DNA of 41,457 bases. Origin: a virus. Shown in pieces: positions 1 to 41,457 of this stretch. Every line of letters starts with the position of its first letter. Within the stretch, counting starts at the first letter, position 1. Location: positions 1-41,457 of IMG/VR virus record IMGVR_UViG_3300045988_094226. One strand, written 5' to 3'. The notes beneath the pieces were generated by a model. It ran no database searches and was not told where the DNA came from. It saw only the letters and a list, made by a program, of their open reading frames with translations. The translations under genes and the position numbers were made by a program.

Positions 1-55
1 AAAATTCTATGTATGATTTCATGTTCTTCTCCTCGGCTTGTCTCTTGCCTGTTTC
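1..55. repeat. Terminal direct repeat. Bases 1-55 are identical to 41403-41457, consistent with circular closure or assembly overlap of a roughly 41.4-kb element
   Basis: Exact 55-nt identity between the two window ends, read directly. The helicase start codon (41422-41424) lies inside the repeat and equals 20-22, overlapping the Rep stop (19-21) as ATGA. Confidence 0.9.
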
Positions 56-855
56 ACAGTACATTCTTTTTTCTTCTTCGGTACTCTCGACTGTGTAATC
101 GGCCATACGTTCCTTTCGTTTACTTTGTACATTCTGTAAAACTGGTAAGGGAATCCGTCTGCTGTATATCCGCTTTCTACTTTGACTATCTGGTAGCCTT
201 TTTTCGGTGTCGGATTGTCTTTCCATTTCCGGGCGTAGATGGTTACCTTTTTCACGTTTGGCTGCTTTAGATTTTTAGACGGTACCCATCGGATTTTCTG
301 TACGGCATTTTCGTTTCGGATTTCTTCATCTGTTTCTTTCACAAAATATTCCGCAAGTCTCATGCAGTCTTCTGGGTTTCCATCAAAAAACCTGAATGAT
401 CTGTAATTGAATTTTGCCCACGGCCAGCATTCATTGATTTCTGATCTTGATATTCCTCCTTCGTTAATCAGAACGTGATGATGTACTCGATGGCGGACAT
501 GTTCTGTGACGTAGATATATTTCAGTTCCGCATTTTTCTTTTTATATTTTTTGCGGAGGTCTCTGATAAATTTTCTTATTCTGTTTTTTGCTTCTTCTGC
601 TGTCGGCTCCGGATTTGCATATGTCAGGTCGATACGCAGGTCATCTCTTTTAAAATTGGTTGCTATAAGCCGGTAGAGTTTTGTTTTCGCCCGGCGGGAG
701 TTTCTTTTCTTGAGTCCCTTATCTGTTTTTTGAATATTGGGACCTCTGACTCTGTTTCCCCCTAATCTGTATGTGTGATATTTTTTCACTTCATAAATTC
801 CGGGTGCTTGAAATATTTCTTTTCGGTACGGCACTTTTTTAAATTCCTGTTCCAA
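19..855 (-). CDS. Rolling-circle replication initiator, HUH endonuclease of the pC194/pUB110 (Rep_1-like) family
   Basis: Motif I-like IDLTY, motif II HVHHHVLI (HUH) and motif III LAEYFVKE with catalytic Tyr. TTG start at 855 has a weak RBS; GTG at about 834 has AGGAA upstream. Stop overlaps the helicase ATG across the circular junction. Confidence 0.55.
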   Translation of the reverse strand: MEQEFKKVPYRKEIFQAPGIYEVKKYHTYRLGGNRVRGPNIQKTDKGLKKRNSRRAKTKLYRLIATNFKRDDLRIDLTYANPEPTAEEAKNRIRKFIRDLRKKYKKKNAELKYIYVTEHVRHRVHHHVLINEGGISRSEINECWPWAKFNYRSFRFFDGNPEDCMRLAEYFVKETDEEIRNENAVQKIRWVPSKNLKQPNVKKVTIYARKWKDNPTPKKGYQIVKVESGYTADGFPYQFYRMYKVNERNVWPITQSRVPKKKKECTVKQARDKPRRRT

Positions 856-877
856 GAATTAACTACTATATCAAGTC

Positions 878-905
878 CTCAAAAGGGGCTGAAACCCCCT
901 TTTTT
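878..905. terminator. GC hairpin GGGG-N6-CCCCC with T6 on the plus strand (T4 on the minus strand). It sits beside a minus-strand CTTGATA motif (875-869), which is the pC194-family dso nick consensus
   Basis: Sequence AAAAGGGGCTGAAACCCCCTTTTTT. On the minus strand the motif is followed 5 nt later by CTTGATA. Confidence 0.35.
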
Positions 906-906
906 C

Positions 907-935
907 TTGACATTTTGTGCCGTTTCACTTATAAT
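907..935 (+). promoter_or_regulatory. Consensus sigma-70-type promoter TTGACA-17-TATAAT pointing rightwards, antisense to the rep leader
   Basis: TTGACA at 907-912, exact 17-nt spacer, TATAAT at 930-935. Confidence 0.55.
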
Positions 936-941
936 TTATGT

Positions 942-1000
942 AGTGGTTTGGTGCTACGGCACTTCCGCTCAGAGTTCTTTTCTGGGCGGTTTTATTTTTC
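942..1000 (+). ncRNA. Candidate countertranscript (ctRNA-like antisense RNA), about 58 nt, ending in an intrinsic terminator. It is antisense to the 3' end of the Zn-ribbon gene and the rep leader region
   Basis: Promoter 907-935 upstream. Hairpin 965-989 (8 bp, one G-U pair) followed by TTTATTTTT. There is no plus-strand ORF; pT181/pUB110-type RCR plasmids regulate rep with ctRNAs. Confidence 0.4.
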
Positions 1001-1225
1001 TTCTTTTTCGTTGTTCTCTTCTTCTGGTTCTTCTGTCTTTTCCCGATATATGCATCTCTGCAAAAAGTCCAGGTAATGTTCGCATTTTCTGCAGTGTTCC
1101 TGGCATATATTAGCTTTTTCTTTTCTGCAGCATACGGTCTGGAATACTTTTGCTTTGCATACACGGCATTTTCTGTTCCGGTAAACTTCTACTATTTTCC
1201 CGCCCGCTAATTTCATGACTGCCAC
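992..1225 (-). CDS. Small Cys-rich zinc-ribbon protein (CxxC...CC...CxxHCxxC)
   Basis: ORF track, 77 aa with multiple paired Cys/His. Overlaps the upstream ORF by 13 nt. Confidence 0.45.
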   Translation of the reverse strand: MAVMKLAGGKIVEVYRNRKCRVCKAKVFQTVCCRKEKANICQEHCRKCEHYLDFLQRCIYREKTEEPEEENNEKEEK

Positions 1226-1554
1226 TCTATACTCACCCTTTCCTTTTTATCCCCACTTTGGACGCTCCAATACCCGCGGGGATTTTTTATTATCTTGAAT
1301 TTTCGTCCACCGGATGATGTATAAGTGTTGTTTTCATCCATAAAAAATACCGGCATTTCTTTCTGTGGTATCAGCCGTTCTTTATCCAGTGTTTCTTCTA
1401 TCAGCCAGCCGATAGGTTTCTTCCGGACGTTATCCCACAAAAGATATATGTCAGTACTTCGCCCACTTGGGCTTTTTCGGAATACATCCCGCTCTTTTCT
1501 TTTTGATTCTTCGTTCTTCTTCCGTTTTATAAAGTTCCTGCAGTTCCATTTCAT
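1213..1554 (-). CDS. Hypothetical protein. The 5' boundary is uncertain: it overlaps the HNH-like gene 3' end in another frame, so this is either genuine overlapping genes or one frameshifted gene
   Basis: C-terminal 90 aa look protein-like (DIYLLWDNVRKKPIGWLIEE...). ATG at 1554 is preceded by GGAG with an 8-nt spacer. Confidence 0.3.
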   Translation of the reverse strand: MKWNCRNFIKRKKNEESKRKERDVFRKSPSGRSTDIYLLWDNVRKKPIGWLIEETLDKERLIPQKEMPVFFMDENNTYTSSGGRKFKIIKNPRGYWSVQSGDKKERVSIEWQS

Positions 1555-1888
1555 GTTCTTTTCTCCATTCTTTAACCGCCTTGCAGTTAAGATATGTCCT
1601 GATTTGTTCATCCACGTACTGCTTTCTCGTGCCGGAGAGTCCGTGTGCTTTGAAACGGTGCATTTCGTATGATAAATGTATAAGATTATCTTCTTTATCC
1701 GATCCTCCGCTGCCTGCGTGTTTCGCATGATGGACTTCCCCGCGCGACGGCGGCCACTCTCCGATAATGGATTGATACGTTTCCGCCAGCTCCTCGTCCC
1801 TTTGTTTGACAAGCCGGCATAGTTTTCGGAATGCCGCTTCCGGTAGTTTGAATCTCACTTTTTTCTCCTTTTCTTTGAATATCTCCAT
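1451..1888 (-). CDS. HNH endonuclease-like protein (cysteine-less HNH variant)
   Basis: EVHHAKHAGSGGSDKEDNLIHLSYEMHRFKAH matches the HH...GG.D..NL..L(C..C)H...H HNH signature. The likely true start is GTG at about 1858, preceded by AAGGAG. Confidence 0.5.
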   Translation of the reverse strand: MEIFKEKEKKVRFKLPEAAFRKLCRLVKQRDEELAETYQSIIGEWPPSRGEVHHAKHAGSGGSDKEDNLIHLSYEMHRFKAHGLSGTRKQYVDEQIRTYLNCKAVKEWRKEHEMELQELYKTEEERRIKKKRAGCIPKKPKWAKY

Positions 1889-2009
1889 GTCTCATCGGCT
1901 CGATAAACTTTAAATGAACAGTCCCGATGGACAGGAACCATGTTTCCTTTTCCGTCTTTCGTCCACATCACATATTCAGCGGGAATTGCTTTCCTGCACT
2001 GGTGGCATA

Positions 2010-2369
2010 TCATTCTACGCTGCATATTTCCCCCGTCGGCTTCATTTCATAGATCTGCATATCCATTACATAGGCAGCGGCATATTCCTGATTGCACCCC
2101 CGGCTTTCTCTCCAGTTTCCGCAGAGGATAAGCGCGTTGCATCGCTGCAGCACTTCTAAGCAGTCTTTCATCGGCTTATGCTGATGCTCTTTGTCATACG
2201 GTGTATATCCCCAGTTGTGAAGTGGTGAAAACAACGTTTTTTCAGGGTATTTCTCCTGTAGCATTTTTAAATATGTTTGTACTTTTTCCTTGTTGCTTTC
2301 ATCGCCGCCGTAAGGATGGGCGATGTAAAGTAACTGCCCTTCTATATATGGATATTCCCTTTTCTTCAT
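2010..2369 (-). CDS. Hypothetical protein, DUF4406/nucleoside 2-deoxyribosyltransferase-like (YIAHPYGG...FSPLH)
   Basis: ORF track with start trimmed to MKKREYPY (RBS GGAGAGGAG). ATGA overlap with the upstream gene. Confidence 0.35.
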   Translation of the reverse strand: MKKREYPYIEGQLLYIAHPYGGDESNKEKVQTYLKMLQEKYPEKTLFSPLHNWGYTPYDKEHQHKPMKDCLEVLQRCNALILCGNWRESRGCNQEYAAAYVMDMQIYEMKPTGEICSVE

Positions 2370-2608
2370 GATTGCGCTCCTCTCCCTCTTCGAACAAGAA
2401 TGCACTTTTTCATTGTAGAAATGACTGTTTCCCTGACTTCCTGATCACTGCTCATCATCATCCCTATCATTCCTGCCGGGCATTTGGCACGATATAAACT
2501 ATCAACCGCCACTGCAATCGCCAGTGAAATAAACTTATCGTCATGTCCTTTTTCTGAAATGCTGAATTGTTCTAATTCATCATCTGCTCGTATCGTCAGT
2601 TCGTACAT
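2366..2608 (-). CDS. Hypothetical protein
   Basis: ORF track, 80 aa, translationally coupled to its neighbours. Confidence 0.3.
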   Translation of the reverse strand: MYELTIRADDELEQFSISEKGHDDKFISLAIAVAVDSLYRAKCPAGMIGMMMSSDQEVRETVISTMKKCILVRRGRGAQS

Positions 2609-2864
2609 GTCCTGCCGCCTTTACTTTGATAATTAATTCCTGCCCCGGCTGTACATTGCCGGGATCTTTGATATGGTTCTCTTTCAATGTGTTGTAGACC
2701 AGCTCCTGCATGTGGTCCTTATCACTAGCGACCCTTGCGCAAGCGTCCCACACACTTTCACCGCGCGCTACCGTGACTTTGTACGGTACGAGAGGTGGTT
2801 CTGGTTCGGCCGCGTATCCTGCCATGCAGACGATCGCCGTAAATACTGTTAAAAACGTACGCAT
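2580..2864 (-). CDS. Secreted LysM-like peptidoglycan-binding protein
   Basis: Signal peptide MRTFLTVFTAIVCMAGYAA, then YKVTVARGESVWDAC...GQELIIKV resembling LysM. Confidence 0.4.
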   Translation of the reverse strand: MRTFLTVFTAIVCMAGYAAEPEPPLVPYKVTVARGESVWDACARVASDKDHMQELVYNTLKENHIKDPGNVQPGQELIIKVKAAGHVRTDDTSR

Positions 2865-2943
2865 GATAACTTCTCCACGACCGCAATCATCATTGTCACG
2901 AAAACCGCCAGCCATAAATAATTTATTATCTTGTCTACCATTT

Positions 2944-3177
2944 TTACGCCCTCATCTTTCTAACTTCCGCCCGGAAATCATATCCGCTTTGTTTCATCTT
3001 CCGTTTCTGCGCATTCTCTTCCATCTTCTGCCGGATAGCCGATTCCGCATCTTCAGGGTCAAACAGATACGCTTTCCCTGACGGGATGAATGGTATCTCC
3101 CCTGTTCGGCACAGCATTCGTATCGTTGTGACCGGATATCCCGTTGCCTTGCAGAAATCCTTTGTGTTTGTAAGCAC
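2944..3177 (-). CDS. Excisionase-family HTH DNA-binding protein (Xis candidate or early regulator)
   Basis: FCKATGYPVTTIRMLCRTGEIPFIPSGKAYLF matches the excisionase/MerR-type HTH_17 pattern. Divergent from the lysogeny module. Confidence 0.45.
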   Translation of the reverse strand: MLTNTKDFCKATGYPVTTIRMLCRTGEIPFIPSGKAYLFDPEDAESAIRQKMEENAQKRKMKQSGYDFRAEVRKMRA

Positions 3178-3246
3178 GTCTTCCCTCTCTTTCTTTTTTA
3201 TTCACTTTCCTTTTGATATACTGTGTTCTGAAAGGATGTGATTTTT

Positions 3247-3684
3247 ATGCTCGAATTCAGCGATTTGACGCAATTTGACCTTAAAATCCTTGAATATGTA
3301 AAAAATAACGGATCGATTTCCGAAGAAAAAATTATTAGTCATTTCGATTCGGACCCCGACGTTACAAGCCTCCGCATTCAGGAACTTTCAAAAGTGTCTT
3401 ATAACATGAACTATCCCAATTACAAGGGACTCCGTATTCCTATTTCTGATTCCTCTTATCTTGATAAGGCGTATTCCCGTTACCATGATGAAGACGGCAT
3501 TCCTCAACTTGAATACACCGGAGTTGTTTCCATAAGCAGACGTGGTAAAAAGGCTATTCAGGACTGGAAACAAAATCATTCTTACAAAGCATGGAATAAT
3601 ATTGTTCGGTCAGATCTTGCGCTTGCTGTAGCAGTTTTATCTTTGATTTTGTCTTTTTATGCCGCTTTTTTTAAAACAGATTGA
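3247..3684 (+). CDS. Membrane-anchored winged-helix protein (N-terminal MarR-like HTH, C-terminal TM helix)
   Basis: DLKILEYVKNNGSISEEKIISHF HTH. C-terminal LALAVAVLSLILSFYAAFF TM segment. RBS AAGGA upstream of ATG 3247. Confidence 0.4.
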   Translation: MLEFSDLTQFDLKILEYVKNNGSISEEKIISHFDSDPDVTSLRIQELSKVSYNMNYPNYKGLRIPISDSSYLDKAYSRYHDEDGIPQLEYTGVVSISRRGKKAIQDWKQNHSYKAWNNIVRSDLALAVAVLSLILSFYAAFFKTD

Positions 3685-3757
3685 AAATAGCAAACACTAA
3701 CGAAATCACCGAAATAATAAAGGCTATATTCGCCAACTGTTTATCTGATACTTTCAT
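3671..3757 (-). CDS. 28-aa hydrophobic peptide MKVSDKQLANIAFIISVISLVFAIFNLF (type I toxin-like or holin-like small membrane peptide)
   Basis: RBS AGAGAGGTGAGGGA 6 nt upstream of ATG. Single TM helix. Own leftward promoter, with -10 TATAAG back-to-back with the plus-strand TATAAT. Confidence 0.35.
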   Translation of the reverse strand: MKVSDKQLANIAFIISVISLVFAIFNLF

Positions 3758-3776
3758 TCCCTCACCTCTCTTTCTT

Positions 3777-3805
3777 TTGCTTAACTCGTCACCTTCACTT
3801 ATAAT
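3777..3805 (+). promoter_or_regulatory. Promoter TTGCTT-17-TATAAT, copy 1 of a duplicated roughly 65-bp promoter/RBS cassette
   Basis: 3777-3782 and 3800-3805. The cassette (about 3767-3832) is repeated at about 4160-4228 with roughly 85% identity. Confidence 0.5.
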
Positions 3806-3829
3806 CGGTTTGAAAGGAGGTGAACCAAT

Positions 3830-4051
3830 ATGCAGTGCAAAATAAATACTCCGTTTGCAAAATCTCTGTCGGATATAAAAACAGAGATTTTGGAACAGAC
3901 AACGGATAAAATCCATACAAGACACACATATTCCAATGGCTTAGTATTGGAATATCTTGCTACCGCTGATGGCGTTTCCGTTTCTTCCAATTGGGGTTGG
4001 AAGAAAGAACCGGATGGCAGCCTTACGCCTGTTCCTGTGGTGAAATCGTAA
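3830..4051 (+). CDS. Small hypothetical protein (73 aa) driven by cassette copy 1
   Basis: ORF track. GGAGGTGA RBS 7 nt upstream. Terminator-like hairpin at 4096-4140. Confidence 0.4.
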   Translation: MQCKINTPFAKSLSDIKTEILEQTTDKIHTRHTYSNGLVLEYLATADGVSVSSNWGWKKEPDGSLTPVPVVKS

Positions 4052-4171
4052 TTTTATCTGCTCGGATGATGACTGCATCCGTAGATACGGTTACGGAAGA
4101 AGAGCCTTTTTCGATCCGATATGGGCTCTTTTTCAATTTCTTTTTTTCCATTTTTATTTCCTCTCTTTCTT

Positions 4172-4200
4172 TTGCTTAACTCATCACGCTCCTCTATAAT
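4172..4200 (+). promoter_or_regulatory. Promoter TTGCTT-17-TATAAT, copy 2 of the duplicated cassette
   Basis: 4172-4177 and 4195-4200. Identical architecture to copy 1. Confidence 0.5.
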
Positions 4201-4224
4201 TGGTTTAGAGAGGAGGTGAACCAT

Positions 4225-4434
4225 ATGACCGCTTACATAAAAGTAAAAGGGTATCAGGTTGTCAGTGTTATTAATATTGAAAAAATCGAGTATACTGATC
4301 CTATTTCCGAGTCATGTTCAGAAATTACCGACTTCAAGAAACTTCGGATTTATCCTGGATATCAATATGTTTTTGTCGGAAACGCTATCCTTCATGTCTT
4401 AGGCGAAAATATTGAATGTGTTTGGTTTGAGTAA
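4225..4434 (+). CDS. Small hypothetical protein (70 aa) driven by cassette copy 2
   Basis: ORF track trimmed to MTAYIKVKG. RBS GAGAGGAGGTGA. Confidence 0.4.
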   Translation: MTAYIKVKGYQVVSVINIEKIEYTDPISESCSEITDFKKLRIYPGYQYVFVGNAILHVLGENIECVWFE

Positions 4435-4609
4435 TTGTCATTTTTTTAGAATAAGAGTGCAGTTGCAGCTGTACTCTTTTCTTATTTCATCAATTATCTT
4501 CACTATTTCCTTGATTTCTGTTATTCGTGACAACTTGATCTCTACCTGTACTTCCAAATTTCCCATTTTCCCTCACCTCTCTTCCTTTAAAAATATATTT
4601 TGTGTCTTT

Positions 4610-4822
4610 TTAGGATACTCTTTCGCTAAAAAAAATAGCGTCTATCTCTTCCGGCTTTAATTTATACCTATCTTTTATGAAAAGTATTTCTGCCTGTCGA
4701 AAATCTGCCCCACCGTTGATTTTTAGATTTAATCGAGATAGGCTTATCCCTAACGCATTCGCTAAATCTTTTTGACTATCTCCATATTTCATCATTTCTG
4801 CCCTCATCAATGGTTTATTCAT
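4610..4822 (-). CDS. Cro-like XRE-family HTH regulator
   Basis: SQKDLANALGISLSRLNLKINGG HTH. Divergent from the repressor. RBS GAGGTGA. Confidence 0.6.
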   Translation of the reverse strand: MNKPLMRAEMMKYGDSQKDLANALGISLSRLNLKINGGADFRQAEILFIKDRYKLKPEEIDAIFFSERVS

Positions 4823-4947
4823 TTTTTCACCTCGCTTTCTTTCAGTGTCTTTTCAGGACACCTTGATTGTATATCCGTTTTTGTGTCTTGTCAAGATACT
4901 TTTTCTTGTTTTCAAAAATTTTTATGGTATAATCAAGACACGAAAGG
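4823..4947. promoter_or_regulatory. Divergent cI/cro-type switch region with operators
   Basis: Perfect palindrome TCTTGTCAAGA at 4886-4896 and half-site TCAAGACAC at 4934-4942. Extended -10 TGgTATAAT at 4925-4933 for the repressor. Confidence 0.5.
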
Positions 4948-5406
4948 ATGGTTACGCATATGGAATTTAAAGATATCCTTTATACTTTAAGAAAAAAGAA
5001 TAAACTAACGCAGCAGGAAGTTGCAGAATATGTAGGGTTGCAAAAAGCAGCTATATACAAATATGAACACGGCTTGCTTGTTAATCCCAAACGATCATTG
5101 ATTTCAAAATTGGCTAAGTTATTTCAAGTTACCCCATCGTATATGATGGGATTAACCGATGATGATAAGTCTGCTCATGTGTCTCTTGGTCCATCCCTTA
5201 CCAAAAAGGACGAAAAAGACATCCAAAAAAGACTATCCGATATCTTAAATGATATGGACAGTCAGGATGCTATCGCCATGTATAACGGCGGAGAACCGAT
5301 GGATCCGGAAACACGGGAATACATGAAAGCATCTCTTGAAAATGCTCTCCGCTTTGCAAAATTAAAAGCAAAAGAAAAATTTACACCAAAAAAACACCGC
5401 AAATAA
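4948..5406 (+). CDS. XRE-family repressor (cI/ImmR-like, no S24 peptidase domain)
   Basis: KLTQQEVAEYVGLQKAAIYKYEHG HTH. Followed by an ImmA-type protease, as in ImmR/ImmA systems. Confidence 0.7.
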   Translation: MVTHMEFKDILYTLRKKNKLTQQEVAEYVGLQKAAIYKYEHGLLVNPKRSLISKLAKLFQVTPSYMMGLTDDDKSAHVSLGPSLTKKDEKDIQKRLSDILNDMDSQDAIAMYNGGEPMDPETREYMKASLENALRFAKLKAKEKFTPKKHRK

Positions 5407-5417
5407 AGGAATGTATT

Positions 5418-5861
5418 ATGGACATAAAGAAATTCGCGAATAAACTTGCCGCTGCTCACGATACAAGAAACCCTTTTCGTATAGCATCTGAAAACCATAT
5501 CCATATCTTATATGAAGAATTAGGTGAAAATTTAGGGTATTTCAGTCAGCTGTTTCGTATTAAAACGATACGGATAAATGGTCATGCCGATCCTTTTCTC
5601 TATCCGTTTATCTGTGCTCACGAACTCGGTCATGCGCTGCTTCATCCGCATGCCGGCACTCATGCTTTCAATAGAAATTCTTTTATTGCTAATTGCAAAA
5701 TTGAAAAAGAAGCGAATCAATTTGCCGTAGAATTGCTATTCCCTGATGAGTTGATAGCTGGTCATCCGGAAATAGACATTTATAATCTGGCGCGGACATT
5801 CGGTATTCCATATCAACTGGTTTATCTTAAGTCCATTTCTTACAGAGCACGTCATTTATAA
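5418..5861 (+). CDS. ImmA/IrrE-family zinc metallopeptidase (anti-repressor protease)
   Basis: HELGHALLH HEXXH motif. Gene order repressor then protease. Confidence 0.7.
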   Translation: MDIKKFANKLAAAHDTRNPFRIASENHIHILYEELGENLGYFSQLFRIKTIRINGHADPFLYPFICAHELGHALLHPHAGTHAFNRNSFIANCKIEKEANQFAVELLFPDELIAGHPEIDIYNLARTFGIPYQLVYLKSISYRARHL

Positions 5862-5875
5862 AAAGGGGATTAATT

Positions 5876-6532
5876 ATGAAAAGGTTCTTGGCTGGTGTGT
5901 TTGTAATATCTGTTATTCTTTTATCCGGATGTGGGGGTGCAGGTAACAGCAGTAATAAAAACAGTAAATCTGTCACTTATTCCACAGAACAGAAATTTGC
6001 AGCGAACACCGAAATCTTGAATATTCTTCCTACAATGAGAAAAACCCATGATGATGTTGACAAAATGGACATATATACCAGTTTGGCAACTGAATCATAC
6101 CCTCCCCAAGATGGTCTATATTGGAAATTAATTGTAAATAAAGGCTATGTCTTCGAATATTTTACAATCGTTAATTTTACAAGTGGTATTGAATGGGTAT
6201 TTTGGGATGATGTCGTTTTTTCCACAAATGAAGGGAATTGGACATATCACATCGGGTCTTTTGCCGGACAGTCAGGAAATGGGAAACGCACTCAAATAGT
6301 TATGGGCGGTAAGTATGAATTTTTAAATGTCTCTATTGATAAAATTGCTCCAGGCTTGGAAAAATTGATAAAAGGAACTAACCCGATTATTCGTTTAAGA
6401 GGTAAGGAATTTGTTTATGACATTAAACTCACGGATAATGATATGAATATAATAAATACTGCTATGTATACCTATGAACAATTAAAAATTACAGGAAACA
6501 AGATTTCTTTTGATAATACTGAAAAGAATTAA
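5876..6532 (+). CDS. Lipoprotein (candidate superinfection-exclusion protein)
   Basis: Signal peptide with lipobox LLSGC. Sits in the lysogeny module between ImmA and int. Confidence 0.55.
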   Translation: MKRFLAGVFVISVILLSGCGGAGNSSNKNSKSVTYSTEQKFAANTEILNILPTMRKTHDDVDKMDIYTSLATESYPPQDGLYWKLIVNKGYVFEYFTIVNFTSGIEWVFWDDVVFSTNEGNWTYHIGSFAGQSGNGKRTQIVMGGKYEFLNVSIDKIAPGLEKLIKGTNPIIRLRGKEFVYDIKLTDNDMNIINTAMYTYEQLKITGNKISFDNTEKN

Positions 6533-6552
6533 TTGGTAATCGGAGGGATACT

Positions 6553-7257
6553 ATGGACTTTAAAGATCCTAAAAACAAAGTATACTTACAAAAAGCCATT
6601 TCATCTCTGTCAAAAGACTATTCCAACATGTTAATTTCAATGACAAATCAAGATGATTCTAATTACAAGAGGGCAGCTCTTCTTTACTACTGGCTACGCG
6701 ACTATAGGAACTATGTCAAAAATGAACCAAAATTCAATTCTGTTTATACCCCGCCTTTCCGACGTGGGAACATAGCAAATATTAATTTCGGCTTTAATTT
6801 GGGCAGCGAACTCGGCGGACTGCACTATGCAATAGTTATTTCTGACAGTAGACCTACCAATCCCATGCTGATAGTCGCTCCTATGACTTCATTTAAACCA
6901 AGCCACCAATTAAATGATTGTGAAATATTTATAGACAACCAACTATTTTTACAATTGAAAGGGAAACAAGATGCCCTTGTACAAACATTAAAACATCAGC
7001 GTGCTACTTCCATCGATAGTGAATCGGATGATATCAATTCCAAATTAGATCAACTCCAAAAAATAAAAAAACAAATTCAAAAACTGAAAAATGGAAGTAT
7101 AATCAATATCAGTCAAATTTGTGCAATAAGTAAAATGCGGGTGATTGATCCGCAAAGTCCCCTTGATGTATTTTATAATATTTCAGTTTCATCTGACGTA
7201 TTAGATAAAATAGACAATAAAATAAAACAGTTTTTTATGAATCCTAACAAACCTTGA
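6553..7257 (+). CDS. Extended PemK/MazF-fold protein (234 aa) with a 65-aa N-terminal extension and a roughly 55-aa coiled-coil insertion. No adjacent antitoxin
   Basis: FRRGNIANINFGFNLGSELGGLHYAIVISDSRPTNPMLIVAPMTS matches the MazF/PemK core (rGdi..v.f....GsE..g.RPalV.s.......v.v.P.Ts). Confidence 0.5.
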   Translation: MDFKDPKNKVYLQKAISSLSKDYSNMLISMTNQDDSNYKRAALLYYWLRDYRNYVKNEPKFNSVYTPPFRRGNIANINFGFNLGSELGGLHYAIVISDSRPTNPMLIVAPMTSFKPSHQLNDCEIFIDNQLFLQLKGKQDALVQTLKHQRATSIDSESDDINSKLDQLQKIKKQIQKLKNGSIINISQICAISKMRVIDPQSPLDVFYNISVSSDVLDKIDNKIKQFFMNPNKP

Positions 7258-7464: not shown

Positions 7465-8541
7465 ATGAAACAATATAAAAGAGGTTCTTTAATCTACGAT
7501 AAACTCCATGACAGTTATCGTGCTTTTATCATGATCAACGGAAAAAGATATTCTAAGCGTTTTAAGAAAAAAGACGATGCTATGGATTGGATGTCACGGC
7601 AGAAAATAGCAGAGCGTGACGGTAATTTCGTTGAACCATCAGATATGCTTGTCGGTCAGTGGCTTTTGTATTTCCTTTCTACTTATAAAAAAGATACTGT
7701 CAGAGCCAGTACATACGAACGATATCTCTATCTTGCCGCAAAGATTGAGCCTATTTCAAAAATCCCTCTCCAGTCTTGTACCGTGTCTCATGTACAAGAA
7801 TTGTTAAATAGTTTAACTCCGGACTGTTCCCGTAAAGTTCATGTTCTTTTACATGCTGCATTTCAGCAAGCTGTAGATCTAAGTATTATCCATAATAATA
7901 TCGTCCGTCTTTCAAAAGCCAAAAAGATTGTCCGTGATGAACCCGGCATATTTAACAAAAATGAAATTAACAAAATTCTTTCTTACGCAAAAGATAAAAT
8001 CTCCGCTTTCTATCCCATTTTCCTTTTAGCGGCTCATACCGGCATGCGGAGAGGTGAAGTGCTTGGTTTGCGTTGGAAAGACGTAAATTTGAAGAATAGC
8101 ACCGTTACCATCCGCCAGCAATTGCAGCGTGTCGGCAGTGACATTACATTTCAGCCTCCGAAAACAAAATCAGGAAAAAGAAAAATCTCAATCCCCGCTA
8201 CGGTCACCGCTGCACTGCAGGAATTGAGAAATAACGAAAAGACAATAGATATCAAGCAAGAGACGCTTGTTTTCAGAAATGCAAATAATAACCCTATCCG
8301 CCCTGAGGCGTTGGAGCGTGCATGGAAGAAAGCAATTACACAATGCGAACTGCCTTATAGAAATTTCCATTGTTTGCGGCATACCCACGCCACTTTATTA
8401 TTAGCCGCCGGTATTCCGATCATTGAAGTGTCCCGCCGGTTAGGTCATGCGAGAGTAAGCCACACATTAGATCTGTATGGCCATGCTATCCCAAGTTTTG
8501 ATGATCGGATTATAGAAAAAATTAATCAGATTTATGGTTAA
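7465..8541 (+). CDS. int: Tyrosine site-specific integrase
   Basis: Phage integrase C-terminal motifs including RHTHATLLLAAG, HARVSHT and LDLYGH (R..H..Y). Adjacent to attP. Confidence 0.9.
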   Translation: MKQYKRGSLIYDKLHDSYRAFIMINGKRYSKRFKKKDDAMDWMSRQKIAERDGNFVEPSDMLVGQWLLYFLSTYKKDTVRASTYERYLYLAAKIEPISKIPLQSCTVSHVQELLNSLTPDCSRKVHVLLHAAFQQAVDLSIIHNNIVRLSKAKKIVRDEPGIFNKNEINKILSYAKDKISAFYPIFLLAAHTGMRRGEVLGLRWKDVNLKNSTVTIRQQLQRVGSDITFQPPKTKSGKRKISIPATVTAALQELRNNEKTIDIKQETLVFRNANNNPIRPEALERAWKKAITQCELPYRNFHCLRHTHATLLLAAGIPIIEVSRRLGHARVSHTLDLYGHAIPSFDDRIIEKINQIYG

Positions 8542-38926: not shown

Positions 38927-41424
38927 TTTCCCTCCATGAAATCAAAGAGTGTCGGTGTTTCCTGGTTATCTTCTTCCCGCTTGAGATACCAGCATCCGTC
39001 ACGGTAGTATTCCGGATTGAGTTCTATTCCTATGCCTTTCCGCCCTGCTTTCATGGCTTCCAGCGGTACTGTCATCAGTCCGCCGAAGGGGTCAAGCACG
39101 GTTTCTCCTTCGTTTGTGTACCGGTTAATCAGTCGGTCTACTATGTCAAACTGGAGAGGACAGAGGTGCATTTGTTTTCTCCTTTGTGATTGTTCTGTGT
39201 TGAGTGTTCTCATACGGTTCACATCGTCCCACACGTCAGGAGACCAGCTCGCTGGATCTATGCACATAAATGTCGCGGGCAGTTTGTTTTTTTCGTCCAT
39301 CGCATTGGCCATCTCTACATGCTTATCAAAGTCATACACGGTTTCTTTACTGTATTTGTTGTACAGTTTTCGTATATCCGATATGGGCATGTCTTTTAGG
39401 TCGTCAACGGACAGCTGCCTGTTTCCGCTGCTTCTCCAGAATGCATGAGCGTCTAATTGCCATTGCCCGCGGGTATATTCTTCTTTACTCTTTGTGACAG
39501 GTGTATCTGCATAGGCTCTTGATGTATCCGTAGGGAGCTTTCTGAACAGCAGGATGTATTCCGGGCAGCCTACTCCCATTTTTGTTCCGTCCTTGCACTG
39601 CTCCGTCCATCCAAGACGGTATGTCTGATTGTTCTCCCGAACCACGTCGGTTATGACGGTTATCATGCCGAAGAATTGGAAGCCGTGTTTCATGTAGTGC
39701 ATGATGGTCAATGCATGGAACGGTTCTATGGTTGGCATGCCTGTTCCCGTTGCGTTCCCGAATAGTACACGGTCTTTCACGTGGCATGCATATACTCTTC
39801 CGGGCTTCAAAATTCTAAGTAAATTCGGCGTTAAATAATCCATCTGCTCAAAAAATTTGTCTGTATTTTCGTTATGCCCGAAATCGTTATAGCTTGCGCA
39901 GTATTCATAGTGATTTCCAAACGGAATTGATGTAAGAAGCATGTCCACTGAGTTATCTTGCATTTTCCCCGTTTCTTCAACACAGTCGCCATGTATCGCG
40001 ATGTAGTTTTTCCCTTTTGTTATGACTTCTTCCACGCCTATACTCCTTTGCATCTCAATGATGGCATCGTTTCTTGACAGTCCATATTTCCTGACTATTT
40101 CTTCCATGCTTTCCGTGAGTTTGTTATATTGCTCCCATTTCTTTTTCAGTACTTCTAGCACCTGCTGTTCTGTTTCCATGTATATGATGTCTATAATGAC
40201 AGGTTTTATTTGTAGGAAGCGGTAACACCGGTGGATGGCTTGGATAAAGTCGTTAAACTCATAGTCAATCCCCATAAATATCTGGCGATGGCAATGTTTT
40301 TGGAAGTTACATCCGCTCCCTGATAGTTCTTTTTTTGTAGCAAGGATACGAAAGTCTCCCTTTGAAAAGCCGATGGTGTTTCTTTCTCTTTCGTCCATAT
40401 CTTGTGAGCCGTAGATAAATTTAGCTTCTGGGATTGCATATTTGATGGCATGACGCTCGCTTTCCAGATCGTGCCATATAATGAAATGTTCATCAGGTGA
40501 TTCGTCGATAATCCGTTTGGTTTCTGCCAGCCTGACATCGATGCTCTCTCTTTTCTCTCTGGCCGCTGCCGAAAGTCCCACGGCAAAGTCTTTTATAAGT
40601 TTGACCTGCCCGTTCTTTTCTTCTTCATTCACGGGTTTTGTGTTTGCCAGCATGTGGTAATTCACTTGCAGTGGCGGAAGGTTATATCCTTCATCGCTGT
40701 ACCCCAGATCAGAGGGCTTTTGAATAAATAATGCCCAGGTAGATAGCCACAGCCAGAATTCTTTTTCTTTATGCGGATAGAGAGTGAGGTTATTTGCTTT
40801 TGTACTGTCCCGCTGAAAGAAGCGTGTTAATGCCTGCCCCGTATCCATAACTTCCAAGTATCCGCCATAGTGAATAAGTTCTTTATATCTATTTGGCGCA
40901 GGTGTAGCCGTGGCAACAAGTTTATATTTCACGCCTTTAAATTTTGGCAGAAATGTCTGATATGTTTTGCTGCCGAAGCTTCTTAAAACGGACGCTTCGT
41001 CTAAGCTGCATGCCGTGAAGTAGTGAGGATCTATATCTCCGTCACGAACTCTTTCATAGTTTGTAATTACTATTCTGTTATCTGCGGCTTTGACTTCTTC
41101 CATATTTCTTACATATGTCGGAGCAGGGATATTGAGCAGATGAACCGCGTCTTCCGCAAATTCCTGCTTGACCCCCAACGGACAGACAATCAACGCTTTA
41201 CCGCCTATTTTCTTAGTGAGTACACGTCACCATTCCAATTGCTGTATACTCTTCCCCAGCCCGAATGCTTCAAACAATGCCCTGCGCCCGCCTTTGAGCG
41301 CCCACAAGACAGCATCTCTTTGATGTGGTTTCAAGACGGAACTTATATCCGCCGGACTGACTTCTATTCCTGATACTGGTGCTTTTATCACTTTATCTTT
41401 CAAAAATTCTATGTATGATTTCAT
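38923..41424 (-). pseudogene. SNF2-family helicase fused to a C-terminal N6/N4 DNA methyltransferase domain, interrupted by one in-frame TGA (about 41227-41229) between helicase motifs I and Ia. Either read through or a pseudogene
   Basis: LKPHQRDAVLWAL...GLGKSIQQLEW-TGA-RVLTKKIGGKALIVCP. DEAS box (SLDEASVL). C-terminal VLDPFGGLMTV AdoMet motif and SIPF catalytic-like motif. TGA is otherwise used as a stop in this genome (ATGA overlaps). Confidence 0.7.
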
Positions 41425-41457
41425 GTTCTTCTCCTCGGCTTGTCTCTTGCCTGTTTC

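What the first reader, a model, noticed from the sequence alone, without database searches (positions are those of the whole stretch)
3668..4610. Duplicated bidirectional promoter cassettes driving small ORFs, including a 28-aa hydrophobic peptide
A roughly 65-bp unit (TTGCTT-17-TATAAT plus AGGAGGTGAACCA-ATG) occurs twice (3767-3832 and 4160-4228). Each drives a different small protein rightwards (73 aa and 70 aa). In each unit the plus-strand -10 overlaps a back-to-back minus-strand -10 (TATAAG or TATAGA) whose transcript has an AGAGAGGTGAGGGA RBS and a small ORF: a 28-aa single-TM peptide (3671-3757) and a 42-aa basic peptide (4023-4151). A third copy of the RBS precedes a 42-aa ORF at 4438-4566. 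The layout is convergent and overlapping transcription, a hydrophobic mini-protein, and a position beside the immunity switch. It resembles type I toxin-antitoxin or small-protein exclusion modules and is not explained by standard phage annotation.
Basis: partly seen in the sequence, partly recalled or inferred. Interest (0 to 1): 0.7.

Follow-up and report, generated by a model that had tools for sequence, protein, structure and literature searches.

The report
Antisense gene cassettes inside prophage early operon
The repeated 65-bp unit is a portable promoter and ribosome-binding module that drives small accessory genes set backwards inside the early lytic operon of a gut prophage; related phages shuffle these cassettes, each with its own small opposite-strand partner gene, so the layout resembles recently described prophage "defence plus antidote" pairs rather than a type I toxin-antitoxin system.

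Summary
The repeat is real: 3765-3827 and 4160-4223 are 86% identical. It is not a local duplication. In about 50 related prophage loci, probably of Dialister, 29 alleles of this unit all read TTGnTT-17-TATAAT, with an SD and a start codon 23-25 nt after the -10. Every copy points the same way and ends at the ATG of a plus-strand cargo gene.

Each cargo gene (c145, c73 and c69 here; at least 16 families in all, including Abi_alpha) has a plus-strand intrinsic terminator. Each converges on a specific small minus-strand ORF with a strong SD (p28, p42a and p42b here). These cassettes sit between cro and an xis-like gene, antisense to the early lytic operon, in at least 19 different combinations. 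Promoter alleles and cargo reassort independently, and mosaic breakpoints fall at the units.

The c69/p42b pair recurs in other phage backbones at 37-50% cargo identity. No credible minus-strand promoter exists in the unit, and nothing matches known type I toxin or RNA families.

The best reading is a multiply interrupted noncontiguous operon of lysogeny-expressed morons with lytic-cycle partners, like Tha/Ith and Tai/Ati. The functions are inferred, not shown.

The parts
2944..3177 (-). xis-like HTH_17 gene (77 aa). It is the conserved left flank of the cassette array and belongs to the leftward early operon.
   Evidence: Pfam HTH_17 E 2e-4; PHROG Cox-like excisionase. It is present at the left end of nearly all related arrays.
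3214..3222 (+). Extended -10 promoter TGaTATACT of cargo gene c145, back to back with the SD of the xis-like gene.
   Evidence: Read from the sequence. The identical upstream region is conserved in all loci that carry c145.
3247..3684 (+). Cargo c145: 145 aa with a weak winged-helix match at the N terminus and a C-terminal TM segment. It lies antisense to the early operon and has no terminator of its own.
   Evidence: 33 homologous clusters, one of them named Dialister invisus. Omega 0.35. Weak HTH_24 match. The 3' flank is unstructured.
3671..3757 (-). p28: a 28-aa single-TM peptide, convergent with c145 with a 14-nt 3' overlap. Its SD is GAGAGGTGAGGGA.
   Evidence: Four alleles were found (28, 26, 31 and 65 aa). 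All keep a hydrophobic core even where the DNA is unrelated. Omega 0.18-0.33.
3765..3829 (+). Promoter/RBS unit A: -35 TTGCTT 3777-3782, 17-nt spacer, -10 TATAAT 3800-3805, SD 3814-3823.
   Evidence: The same allele drives c54 in L036 and c102 in L032, and it remains as a scar in L004 and L051.
3830..4051 (+). Cargo c73: 73 aa, predicted all-beta, a rare ORFan.
4096..4148 (+). Intrinsic terminator T1 of c73: a 12-bp stem followed by a U-tract. It lies inside the 5' coding part of p42a.
   Evidence: The region folds at -40.2 kcal/mol, z -6.3, on the plus strand, against -28.2 kcal/mol with no U-tract on the minus strand.
4023..4151 (-). p42a: a 42-aa basic ORF, convergent with c73 with a 29-nt overlap. 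Its SD is AGAGAGGAAATAAAA.
   Evidence: Homologues are 93-95% identical in L001 and L004 and 67% identical in L014-L020, with the same length. In L014 it is translationally coupled to a 63-aa ORF. Omega 0.24. It is kept in L004 after c73 was deleted.
4160..4224 (+). Promoter/RBS unit B: -35 TTGCTT 4172-4177, 17-nt spacer, -10 TATAAT 4195-4200, SD 4210-4219.
   Evidence: The same allele drives c54 in L029 and c102 in L034. Homology to L001 breaks at 4169, inside this unit.
4225..4434 (+). Cargo c69: 69 aa, function unknown.
   Evidence: Homologues are 83-99% identical in more than 100 contigs. Remote homologues of 37-50% identity occur in other phage backbones. Omega 0.25.
4453..4488 (+). Intrinsic terminator T2 of c69: an 11-bp stem with two G.U pairs, followed by a U-tract. 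It lies inside the 3' coding part of p42b.
   Evidence: Called by the scanner. It folds at -21.1 kcal/mol, z -5.9, on the plus strand against -12.5 on the minus strand. A hairpin plus U-tract sits at the same place in 6 lineages, with different stem sequences.
4438..4566 (-). p42b: a 42-aa ORF, convergent partner of c69. Its SD is GAGAGGTGAGGGAAA.
   Evidence: It follows c69 in every context. Partners of 43-52 aa with the same strand-helix-strand pattern follow the remote c69 homologues in L044, L047, L050 and L055.
4602..4618 (.). Third copy of the 17-bp palindromic operator, between cro and p42b.
   Evidence: GTGTCTTnnnnAGGAYAC occurs only at 4602, 4845 and 4883 in the genome.
4610..4822 (-). 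cro-like gene (70 aa; DUF739/HTH_3), the first gene of the leftward early operon.
   Evidence: PR at 4894..4866 is TTGACA-17-TACAAT.

Best explanation
The window is a complete temperate siphophage genome, probably of Dialister. Its early lytic operon runs leftward from PR through cro. Between cro and the xis-like gene this operon is interrupted three times by self-contained, rightward cassettes.

What each cassette contains:
- A constitutive-looking sigma-A promoter with a very short leader and a strong SD. Unit A, unit B and the extended -10 promoter of c145 are these promoters.
- One small cargo gene (c145, c73 or c69).
- For c73 and c69, an intrinsic terminator that works only on the plus strand.
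- A specific small minus-strand ORF (p28, p42a or p42b) on which the cargo converges. That ORF has its own strong SD and belongs to the leftward operon.

The repeated 65-bp unit is therefore a portable promoter/RBS module, not a duplication product. Because it is conserved between cassettes, it also serves as the homologous joint at which related phages swap cassettes and promoters.

Inferred mode of action:
- In the lysogen, CI shuts PR, and the cargo genes are transcribed and insulated by their terminators.
- On induction, PR transcription reads head-on through the cassettes. It dampens the cargo promoters by collision and antisense RNA, and it expresses the partner ORFs.
- By analogy with Tha/Ith and Tai/Ati, the cargo are lysogeny-expressed exclusion or defence functions, and the partners are their lytic-cycle antidotes.

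What is shown: the anatomy, the conservation, the reassortment and the pairing. What is inferred: promoter activity, read-through from PR, and any defence or antidote function.
For: - Genome layout: cI, ImmA and integrase are on the plus strand; cro, the xis-like gene and the replication genes are on the minus strand. The assembly is circular.
- Promoter conservation: 29 of 29 distinct unit alleles have TTGnTT, exactly 17 nt, then TATAAT, with the start codon 23-25 nt after the -10.
- Placement of units: profile hits occur only in the array, all in the orientation opposite to cro, and in every oriented locus each ends at the ATG of a cargo gene. Four scars are the exception.
- Terminators: strong plus-strand terminators follow c73 and c69 in the window and c68, c69 and c54 in L004, and they are much weaker on the minus strand.
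- Array diversity: at least 19 cargo combinations occur in about 45 loci, always as [+cargo -partner]n between the xis-like gene and cro. There are 13 constant pair types.
- Known cargo: these include Abi_alpha/PDC-S47 and DUF2513.
- Reassortment: unit A drives c73, c54 or c102. Unit B drives c69, c54 or c102. c69 is driven by three different unit types.
- Breakpoints: mosaic breakpoints against the window cluster at 3757-3787, 3832-3843, 4144-4184, 4220-4227 and 4583-4592. L001 is 99.7% identical up to 4169 and then diverges.
- Deep conservation of one pair: c69 with a p42b-like partner is kept at 37-50% cargo identity in four further loci (L044, L047, L050, L055; L044 and L055 share a similar backbone), each time antisense in an early operon.
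- Coding signal: both strands show omega of 0.18-0.6.
- Composition: the array has 36.8% GC against 42.6% for the genome.
- Precedent: the noncontiguous-operon immune/counter-immune pairs Tha/Ith (PMC11087260) and Tai/Ati (PMC11364771).
Against: - There are no transcript data. Promoter activity, lysogenic expression of the cargo and PR read-through are all inferred.
- The -35 matches the consensus in only 3 of 6 positions, and the generic scanner does not call the units.
- c73, c69, c145 and all partners lack any Pfam, PHROG, PADLOC or PDB relative. The c73 model has no fold match. A defence role therefore rests on neighbours and analogy.
- The best-conserved parts of p42a and p42b are the reverse reading of the cargo terminators, so some of the apparent protein conservation is RNA-level.
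- Constant pairing within this phage group could be plain linkage, because only the divergent junctions share homology.
Confidence: 0.6

Rival explanations
1. Ordinary mosaicism without functional pairing. The plus-strand genes are unrelated morons, and the minus-strand ORFs are ordinary small early genes. Cargo and partner travel together only because recombination is confined to the conserved divergent junctions. There is no defence/antidote relationship.
For: - Breakpoints coincide with the units.
- The convergent 3' junctions share no homology between cassettes.
- The partners overlap the cargo terminators, so any transfer of a complete moron carries part of the partner.
- Partners persist after the cargo is deleted (L004, L036).
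Against: - The c69/p42b-like pair is kept in other phage backbones at 37-50% cargo identity. Synonymous sites there are saturated and the conserved units are absent, yet an ORF of 42-52 aa with an SD is maintained every time.
- Only orphan partners were seen. No intact cargo gene was seen without its partner ORF.
Confidence: 0.3
2. Each unit is a bidirectional promoter whose minus-strand arm drives a small toxic peptide. The overlapping plus-strand transcript acts as an antisense antitoxin, making a type I TA or a related module.
For: - p28 is a conserved 26-31-aa single-TM peptide. One allele carries a polybasic tail, as many type I toxins do.
- c145 has no terminator, so its transcript would be fully antisense to p28.
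- The rc of TATAATY gives RATTAT, which keeps A2 and T6. Weak divergent initiation therefore cannot be excluded.
Against:
- There is no -35 or TG extension on the minus strand, and the sequence there is not conserved among alleles.
- p42a and p42b are hydrophilic.
- The antisense partners are protein-coding genes with omega of 0.25-0.35.
- No Pfam type I toxin family and no Rfam antitoxin family matches.
- In L003-type arrays c145 is a pseudogene, yet the peptide ORF is kept and is even longer.
Confidence: 0.08
3. The conserved non-consensus parts of the units are a common operator. These parts are the spacer ..TTCAC.CTCCCC.. and the TGGTTT after the -10. All cassettes would then form a regulon switched by one phage or host regulator, and the sequence identity would reflect that binding site rather than recombination.
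For: The spacer and post -10 positions are conserved in at least 70% of 11 aligned units that drive unrelated genes. All 29 alleles keep identical geometry.
Against: - No inverted or direct repeat typical of an operator is visible in the unit.
- Phages with different cI/cro types share identical units.
- Allele-level identities of 96-100% in front of different cargo point to recent exchange.
- This idea is compatible with the best explanation rather than exclusive of it.
Confidence: 0.15
4. A recent tandem duplication with no function.
For: Two copies, 86% identical, lie 395 bp apart.
Against: - The genes behind the two copies are unrelated.
- L001 and L002 carry only copy A, while many phages carry copy B in other contexts.
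- 29 alleles drive at least 16 cargo families.
Confidence: 0.02

Closest known systems
Noncontiguous-operon immune/counter-immune pairs in prophages: Tai/Ati of phage phi80 (PMC11364771) and Tha/Ith of S. aureus phage 80alpha (PMC11087260); concept from Saenz-Lahoya et al. 2019 (PMC6358700)
   Same: [quoted passage not shown]
- It lies next to a small gene that belongs to that operon.
- In Tai/Ati the lysogeny-expressed immune gene interrupts a lytic operon that contains its antidote. That is the same polarity as here.
- The authors predicted that more such pairs exist.
   Different: - There is no sequence or fold relationship to Tha, Ith, Tai or Ati.
- Here there are up to five cassettes in tandem in the early (cro) operon, not one pair.
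- The cassettes share a conserved promoter/RBS unit that reassorts with the cargo.
- The cargo terminators are embedded in the partner ORFs.
- No phenotype is known.
Morons of lambdoid and other temperate phages (Hendrix/Juhala definition; own knowledge)
   Same: - An extra gene is present in some relatives and absent in others.
- It is flanked by its own promoter and terminator.
- Its base composition deviates from the genome.
- It is presumed to be expressed from the prophage.
   Different: - Classical morons are single insertions, usually in late regions and usually co-oriented with their neighbours.
- Here the cassettes are arrayed, antisense to the early operon and paired with opposite-strand ORFs.
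- They are driven by one promoter family.
Prophage-borne type I toxin-antitoxin systems (C. difficile phiCD630 CD0977.1-RCd11 and others, PMC7699646, PMC6563280; B. subtilis SPbeta bsrG/SR4 and yonT/SR6, PMC5848175)
   Same: A small hydrophobic peptide gene on a prophage with convergent, 3'-overlapping antisense transcription (the p28/c145 pair).
   Different: - There is no dedicated antisense sRNA.
- No promoter for the peptide gene was found.
- Two of the three small ORFs are hydrophilic.
- There is no family match.
- The peptide sits inside the early lytic operon.
Conserved boundary or linker sequences at mosaic joints of lambdoid phages (Clark et al. 2001, HK620; own knowledge; cited in PMC3029335). 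Relaxed homologous recombination between temperate phages (PMC3945230).
   Same: Short conserved intergenic sequences coincide with the exchange points between modules.
   Different: Here the linker is itself a complete promoter/RBS. It occurs up to five times per genome, so single small cassettes and promoter alleles can be swapped.

Membership tests
Moron | Gene present between conserved flanks in some phages and absent in close relatives | tested here: met
   L001 and L002 are 99.7% identical to window 1-4169 but lack the c69 cassette. The arrays differ in cassette content.
Moron | Own promoter upstream | tested here: inconclusive
   TTGnTT-17-TATAAT is kept in 29 of 29 alleles, with the SD and ATG 23-25 nt downstream. 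The -35 matches only 3 of 6, and activity was not measured.
Moron | Own terminator downstream | tested here: met
   T1 is at 4096-4148 and T2 at 4453-4488, with z-scores of -6.3 and -5.9. c145 has none.
Moron | Deviating base composition | tested here: met
   GC is 36.8% in 3200-4600 against 42.6% for the genome.
Moron | Expressed from the repressed prophage | not testable with these tools
   This needs RNA-seq of a lysogen.
Noncontiguous operon | Gene or genes with their own promoter, in opposite orientation, between genes of one operon | tested here: met
   The gene order on the minus strand is cro, p42b, [c69], p42a, [c73], p28, [c145], xis-like, where brackets mark plus-strand genes.
Noncontiguous operon | The operon transcript reads through the antisense gene | tested here: inconclusive
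   No strong minus-strand terminator or promoter lies between 4866 and 2944, and the terminator hairpins are weakened on the minus strand. The transcript itself was not observed.
Noncontiguous operon | Reciprocal repression of the two transcription units | not testable with these tools
   This needs reporter or RNA-seq data.
Prophage immune/counter-immune pair (Tha/Ith, Tai/Ati type) | The cargo protects the lysogen against other phages | not testable with these tools
   There is only indirect support: sister cassettes carry Abi_alpha/PDC-S47. c73, c69 and c145 have no PADLOC hit.
Prophage immune/counter-immune pair (Tha/Ith, Tai/Ati type) | The adjacent opposite-strand gene neutralises the cargo during the phage's own lytic cycle | not testable with these tools
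   There is only co-occurrence: 13 constant pair types, and the c69/p42b pair is kept in other backbones.
Type I toxin-antitoxin | Small hydrophobic toxin ORF | tested here: inconclusive
   p28 fits, as a single TM of 26-31 aa. p42a and p42b are hydrophilic.
Type I toxin-antitoxin | Dedicated cis-antisense sRNA antitoxin (definition in PMC6563280) | tested here: not met
   The antisense transcripts would be mRNAs of c145, c73 and c69, which are under purifying selection. No Rfam family reaches its threshold.
Type I toxin-antitoxin | Similarity to a known toxin family | tested here: not met
   No Pfam hit at E of 0.1 or better. The only PHROG hit is to an unknown family at E 0.045.
Type I toxin-antitoxin | Toxicity of the peptide, relieved by the antisense RNA | not testable with these tools
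   This needs an expression experiment.
Bidirectional promoter with shared -10 | Minus-strand -10 with A at position 2 and T at position 6, overlapping the plus-strand -10 | tested here: inconclusive
The hexamers shifted by one base, GATTAT and AATTAT, have A2 and T6 but match the consensus in only 4 of 6 positions.
Bidirectional promoter with shared -10 | Supporting -35 or TG extension on the minus strand | tested here: not met
   The best candidates are TTGGTT at 18 nt (unit A) and ATGGTT (unit B). This position is not conserved in other alleles. The scan calls nothing there.
Integron-like cassette array | Dedicated integrase with attI/attC recombination sites flanking promoterless cassettes | tested here: not met
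   The cassettes carry their own promoters. The repeats are promoter units without attC-like imperfect palindromes. The only integrase is the phage tyrosine integrase at 7465-8541.

The most novel reading that the evidence does not exclude
The array is a recombination-driven cassette exchanger. A conserved promoter/RBS linker lets related prophages swap lysogeny-expressed immunity genes together with their cognate lytic-cycle antidotes. Each of the 13 or more cargo/partner pairs, including c69/p42b, c73/p42a and the membrane pair c145/p28, would be a previously unknown small defence/anti-defence system. Head-on transcription from PR would be the switch between the two states.
Probability: 0.3. 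Interest if true: 0.8.

Novelty: new variant of a known kind. Interest (0 to 1): 0.6.

Why it matters
If the inferred logic holds, this phage group offers a compact natural library of small prophage-encoded exclusion or defence genes. Each would be physically linked to its own inhibitor, in an understudied gut and oral host (Negativicutes).

It would extend the noncontiguous-operon principle in three ways: from single pairs to tandem arrays, from late or lysogeny operons to the cro early operon, and to a case where a shared promoter module doubles as the recombination joint that generates cassette diversity.

It also gives a concrete example of dual coding, because unidirectional terminators are embedded in opposite-strand ORFs. 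Even under the neutral reading, it is a clean case for studying how promoters and small genes reassort in temperate phages.

Tried and rejected
- DNA similarity of 2900-5000 to 50,697 deposited phage genomes gave no match. A tblastn search with p42b also gave none.
- An exact search for the unit core in IMG/VR gave no match. Degenerate patterns found only about 12 contigs of the same phage group.
- Two scans of species-representative genomes, with c69 and with the integrase, found no close relative. The host is therefore inferred only from one NCBI name, Dialister invisus.
- Pfam, PHROG, PADLOC and PDB sequence searches of c145, c73, c69, p28, p42a, p42b and ten further cargo or partner proteins gave nothing above threshold, apart from Abi_alpha, DUF2513 and a zinc-ribbon-like 64-aa cargo.
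- c73 and c69 are not homologous to each other.
- The Rfam scan of 2800-5300 found only a sub-threshold chance hit.
- I considered a small leader hairpin (GGTTT..AACC) around the SD. Its energy is not significant (z -0.8 and -1.9), and the 5' arm probably lies upstream of the transcription start.
- I considered a second CI-controlled leftward promoter at the distal operator 4602-4618. No acceptable -35/-10 pair is present.
- I considered an integron-like mechanism and rejected it, because there are no attC-like sites.
Full report
**Setting**

The window is a complete circular assembly; its first and last 55 nt are identical. It is a temperate siphophage of about 41.4 kb.
- On the plus strand are a cI-like repressor (4948-5406), an ImmA/M78 peptidase (5418-5861), a PemK-like protein (6553-7257) and a tyrosine integrase (7465-8541).
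- On the minus strand are a cro-like gene (4610-4822), an xis-like HTH_17 gene (2944-3177), the replication genes and, after wrapping round the circle, the structural genes.
- PR is TTGACA-17-TACAAT at 4894..4866.
- The early lytic operon therefore runs leftward, and the finding lies inside it, directly downstream of cro.
- One homologue of the 145-aa gene is named Dialister invisus by NCBI. No deposited phage is similar at the DNA level.

**Observation**

The repeat is real. 3765-3827 and 4160-4223 are 86% identical over 64 columns. The core occurs nowhere else in the window.
- Each copy reads TTGCTT, 17 nt, TATAAT, then an SD and an ATG 24 nt after the -10.
The second rightward protein is 69 aa, not 70.
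- The proposed minus-strand -10 boxes lack the T at position 6 and have no -35. The scan finds no minus-strand promoter in front of any small ORF.

**What the comparison shows**

I retrieved related loci by exact-protein look-ups of c73, c69 and c145 and of their homologues. These are about 50 loci from human-associated and other public metagenomes and from IMG/VR.
- In all of them the stretch between the xis-like gene and cro is a variable array of the form [+cargo -partner]n.
- I counted at least 19 different cargo combinations and 13 cargo/partner pair types that stay constant across contexts.
- Cargo families number at least 16. They include two Abi_alpha/PDC-S47 proteins, a DUF2513 protein, a zinc-ribbon-like protein and many ORFans.
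- The window's own combination (c145-p28, c73-p42a, c69-p42b) was not seen elsewhere.
- L001 and L002 are 99.7% identical to window 1-4169 and lack the c69 cassette. Homology breaks inside unit B.

**The unit is a promoter family**

I built a profile from 11 units.
- It hits only inside the arrays, always in the orientation opposite to cro, and each hit ends at the start codon of a cargo gene.
- All 29 distinct alleles have TTGnTT, exactly 17 nt, then TATAAT, with the start codon 23-25 nt after the -10.
- Cargo genes without this unit have extended -10 promoters instead: TGnTATAAT or TGnTATACT. Examples are c145 at 3214-3222 and the 277-aa Abi_alpha cargo.
- Promoter alleles and cargo reassort. 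Unit A, nearly identical, drives c73 in the window, c54 in L036 and c102 in L032. Unit B drives c69, c54 (L029) and c102 (L034). c69 is found behind three unit types.
- Mosaic breakpoints relative to the window cluster at both edges of the units and at the p42b SD.
- Two kinds of scar keep the promoter and the partner but have lost the cargo: L004 and L051 for c73, and L036 and L037 for c69.

**Terminators**

c73 and c69 are each followed by a strong hairpin plus U-tract on the plus strand: 4096-4148 and 4453-4488, with z-scores of -6.3 and -5.9.
- On the minus strand the same hairpins are weaker and lack a proper U-tract. In T2, two G.U pairs become A.C mismatches.
- Leftward transcription should therefore pass through them.
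- Other cargo genes (c68, c54) have similar plus-strand terminators.
- c145 has none, so its transcript should run antisense over p28 and on into c73.

**Are the minus-strand ORFs genes?**

All have strong SDs at the correct spacing.
- p28 has four alleles. Where the DNA of the C-terminal half is unrelated, it still encodes a hydrophobic helix. Omega is 0.18-0.33.
- p42a has a 67%-identical homologue of the same length in L014-L020. There it is translationally coupled to a 63-aa ORF. Omega is 0.24.
- p42b follows c69 in every context.
- Remote c69 homologues (37-50% identity) lie in other phage backbones: L044, L047/L048, L050 and L055. Each is again a lone plus-strand gene inside a minus-strand early operon. 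Each converges on a 43-52-aa ORF with an SD and the same strand-helix-strand pattern.
- One caveat applies. The best-conserved residues of p42b (..EIRKEY..CxCTL) and the N terminus of p42a are the reverse reading of the cargo terminators. That part of the similarity is not evidence for the proteins.
- The retention of an open frame plus an SD in six lineages at saturated dS is evidence for them.

**Mechanism**

Shown: the cassette anatomy, promoter conservation, unidirectional terminators, reassortment, constant pairing and deep conservation of one pair.

Inferred:
- The cargo promoters fire in the lysogen.
- PR transcription reads through after induction, expresses the partners and interferes head-on with the cargo promoters.
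- The cargo are exclusion or defence functions, and the partners are their antidotes.

The inference follows two published cases. In phi80, the immune gene tai interrupts a lytic operon that carries its antidote ati (PMC11364771). In 80alpha, tha and ith form an antisense unit whose architecture is needed to balance immunity and autoimmunity (PMC11087260). The Tai/Ati authors predicted further pairs in noncontiguous operons.

My confidence in the architecture is about 0.85. My confidence in the defence/antidote function is about 0.3-0.35.

**Rivals**
- Plain linkage without functional pairing is the main alternative (0.3). It explains the breakpoints and the orphan partners. It does not explain the conservation of the c69/p42b pair outside this phage group.
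A toxin-like role for p28 alone is not excluded.
- A shared operator in the conserved spacer is possible and would be compatible with the main model.
- A functionless tandem duplication is refuted.

**Novelty and verdict**

Each ingredient is known: morons, noncontiguous operons, prophage defence with self-antidotes, and linker-mediated mosaicism. I did not find the combination described. That combination is tandem arrays of up to five antisense cassettes in the cro operon, one promoter/RBS family that reassorts with the cargo, terminators embedded in partner ORFs, and at least 13 constant pairs.

I rate it a new variant of a known kind, with interest 0.6. The functions remain untested, and all proteins in the window's cassettes are ORFans.

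Noticed in passing
window 1-55 and 41403-41457: The first and last 55 nt are identical, so the window is a complete circular assembly of a phage genome of about 41.4 kb. L001 aligns continuously across the junction.
   Followed up: yes
window 4602-4618, 4845-4861, 4883-4899: The 17-bp palindrome GTGTCTTnnnnAGGAYAC occurs exactly three times in the genome. Two copies lie in the cro-cI intergenic region over PR. One lies just downstream of cro, and it travels with the immunity module in L005 and L010. It is probably a set of CI operators including a distal one for looping. No promoter was found at the distal site.
   Followed up: partly
window 5876-7257, between ImmA and the integrase: This is a second variable hotspot. 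The window carries a 218-aa protein with a lipoprotein-like N terminus and a 234-aa PemK/MazF-like protein (E 3.5e-10). In the same slot, relatives carry Abi_2, PemK-like, Fic, SLFN/AlbA_2, DUF3800 or Bro-N genes.
   Followed up: partly
L003-L006, L010-L012 (e.g. L003 3366-3879): In these arrays c145 is a pseudogene with two in-frame stops. A one-base difference removes the stop of the TM-peptide ORF, extending it to 65 aa with a polybasic tail (KKKRHKKTKSK) that reads antisense into the dead c145.
   Followed up: partly
window 4096-4148 within 4023-4151(-); 4453-4488 within 4438-4566(-): This is dual coding. The plus-strand intrinsic terminators of c73 and c69 lie inside the coding sequence of the minus-strand partner ORFs. 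The motifs MEKKKLKKSPYRIEKGSS (p42a) and EIRKEY..CNCTL (p42b) are the U-tract and stem arms read backwards. The stems differ between lineages, and the encoded residues change with them.
   Followed up: yes
L004 6776-6969, L051 near 7024, L036/L037 near 7520-7731: These are cargo-deletion scars. A promoter unit and the last 8-10 codons of the cargo remain, together with an intact partner ORF. I saw no case of an intact cargo gene lacking its partner ORF.
   Followed up: partly
window 4170-5190 vs L001 10348-10969: This is an immunity-module swap. The window and L001 are 99.7% identical to the left of 4169 and about 92% identical from 5191 (inside cI) onward. Between those points they carry unrelated cro and cI N-terminal regions. 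The right-hand junction lies within the repressor gene.
   Followed up: partly
L015 5582-6796: One array carries two diverged copies of the same cassette type (c54 with m49, and c54 with m53).
   Followed up: no
L055 3838-4207: The unrelated phage that carries a remote c69/p42b pair has a second lone plus-strand gene (66 aa). It converges on a 62-aa minus-strand ORF in the same early operon, which suggests the antisense-pair layout is more widespread.
   Followed up: no
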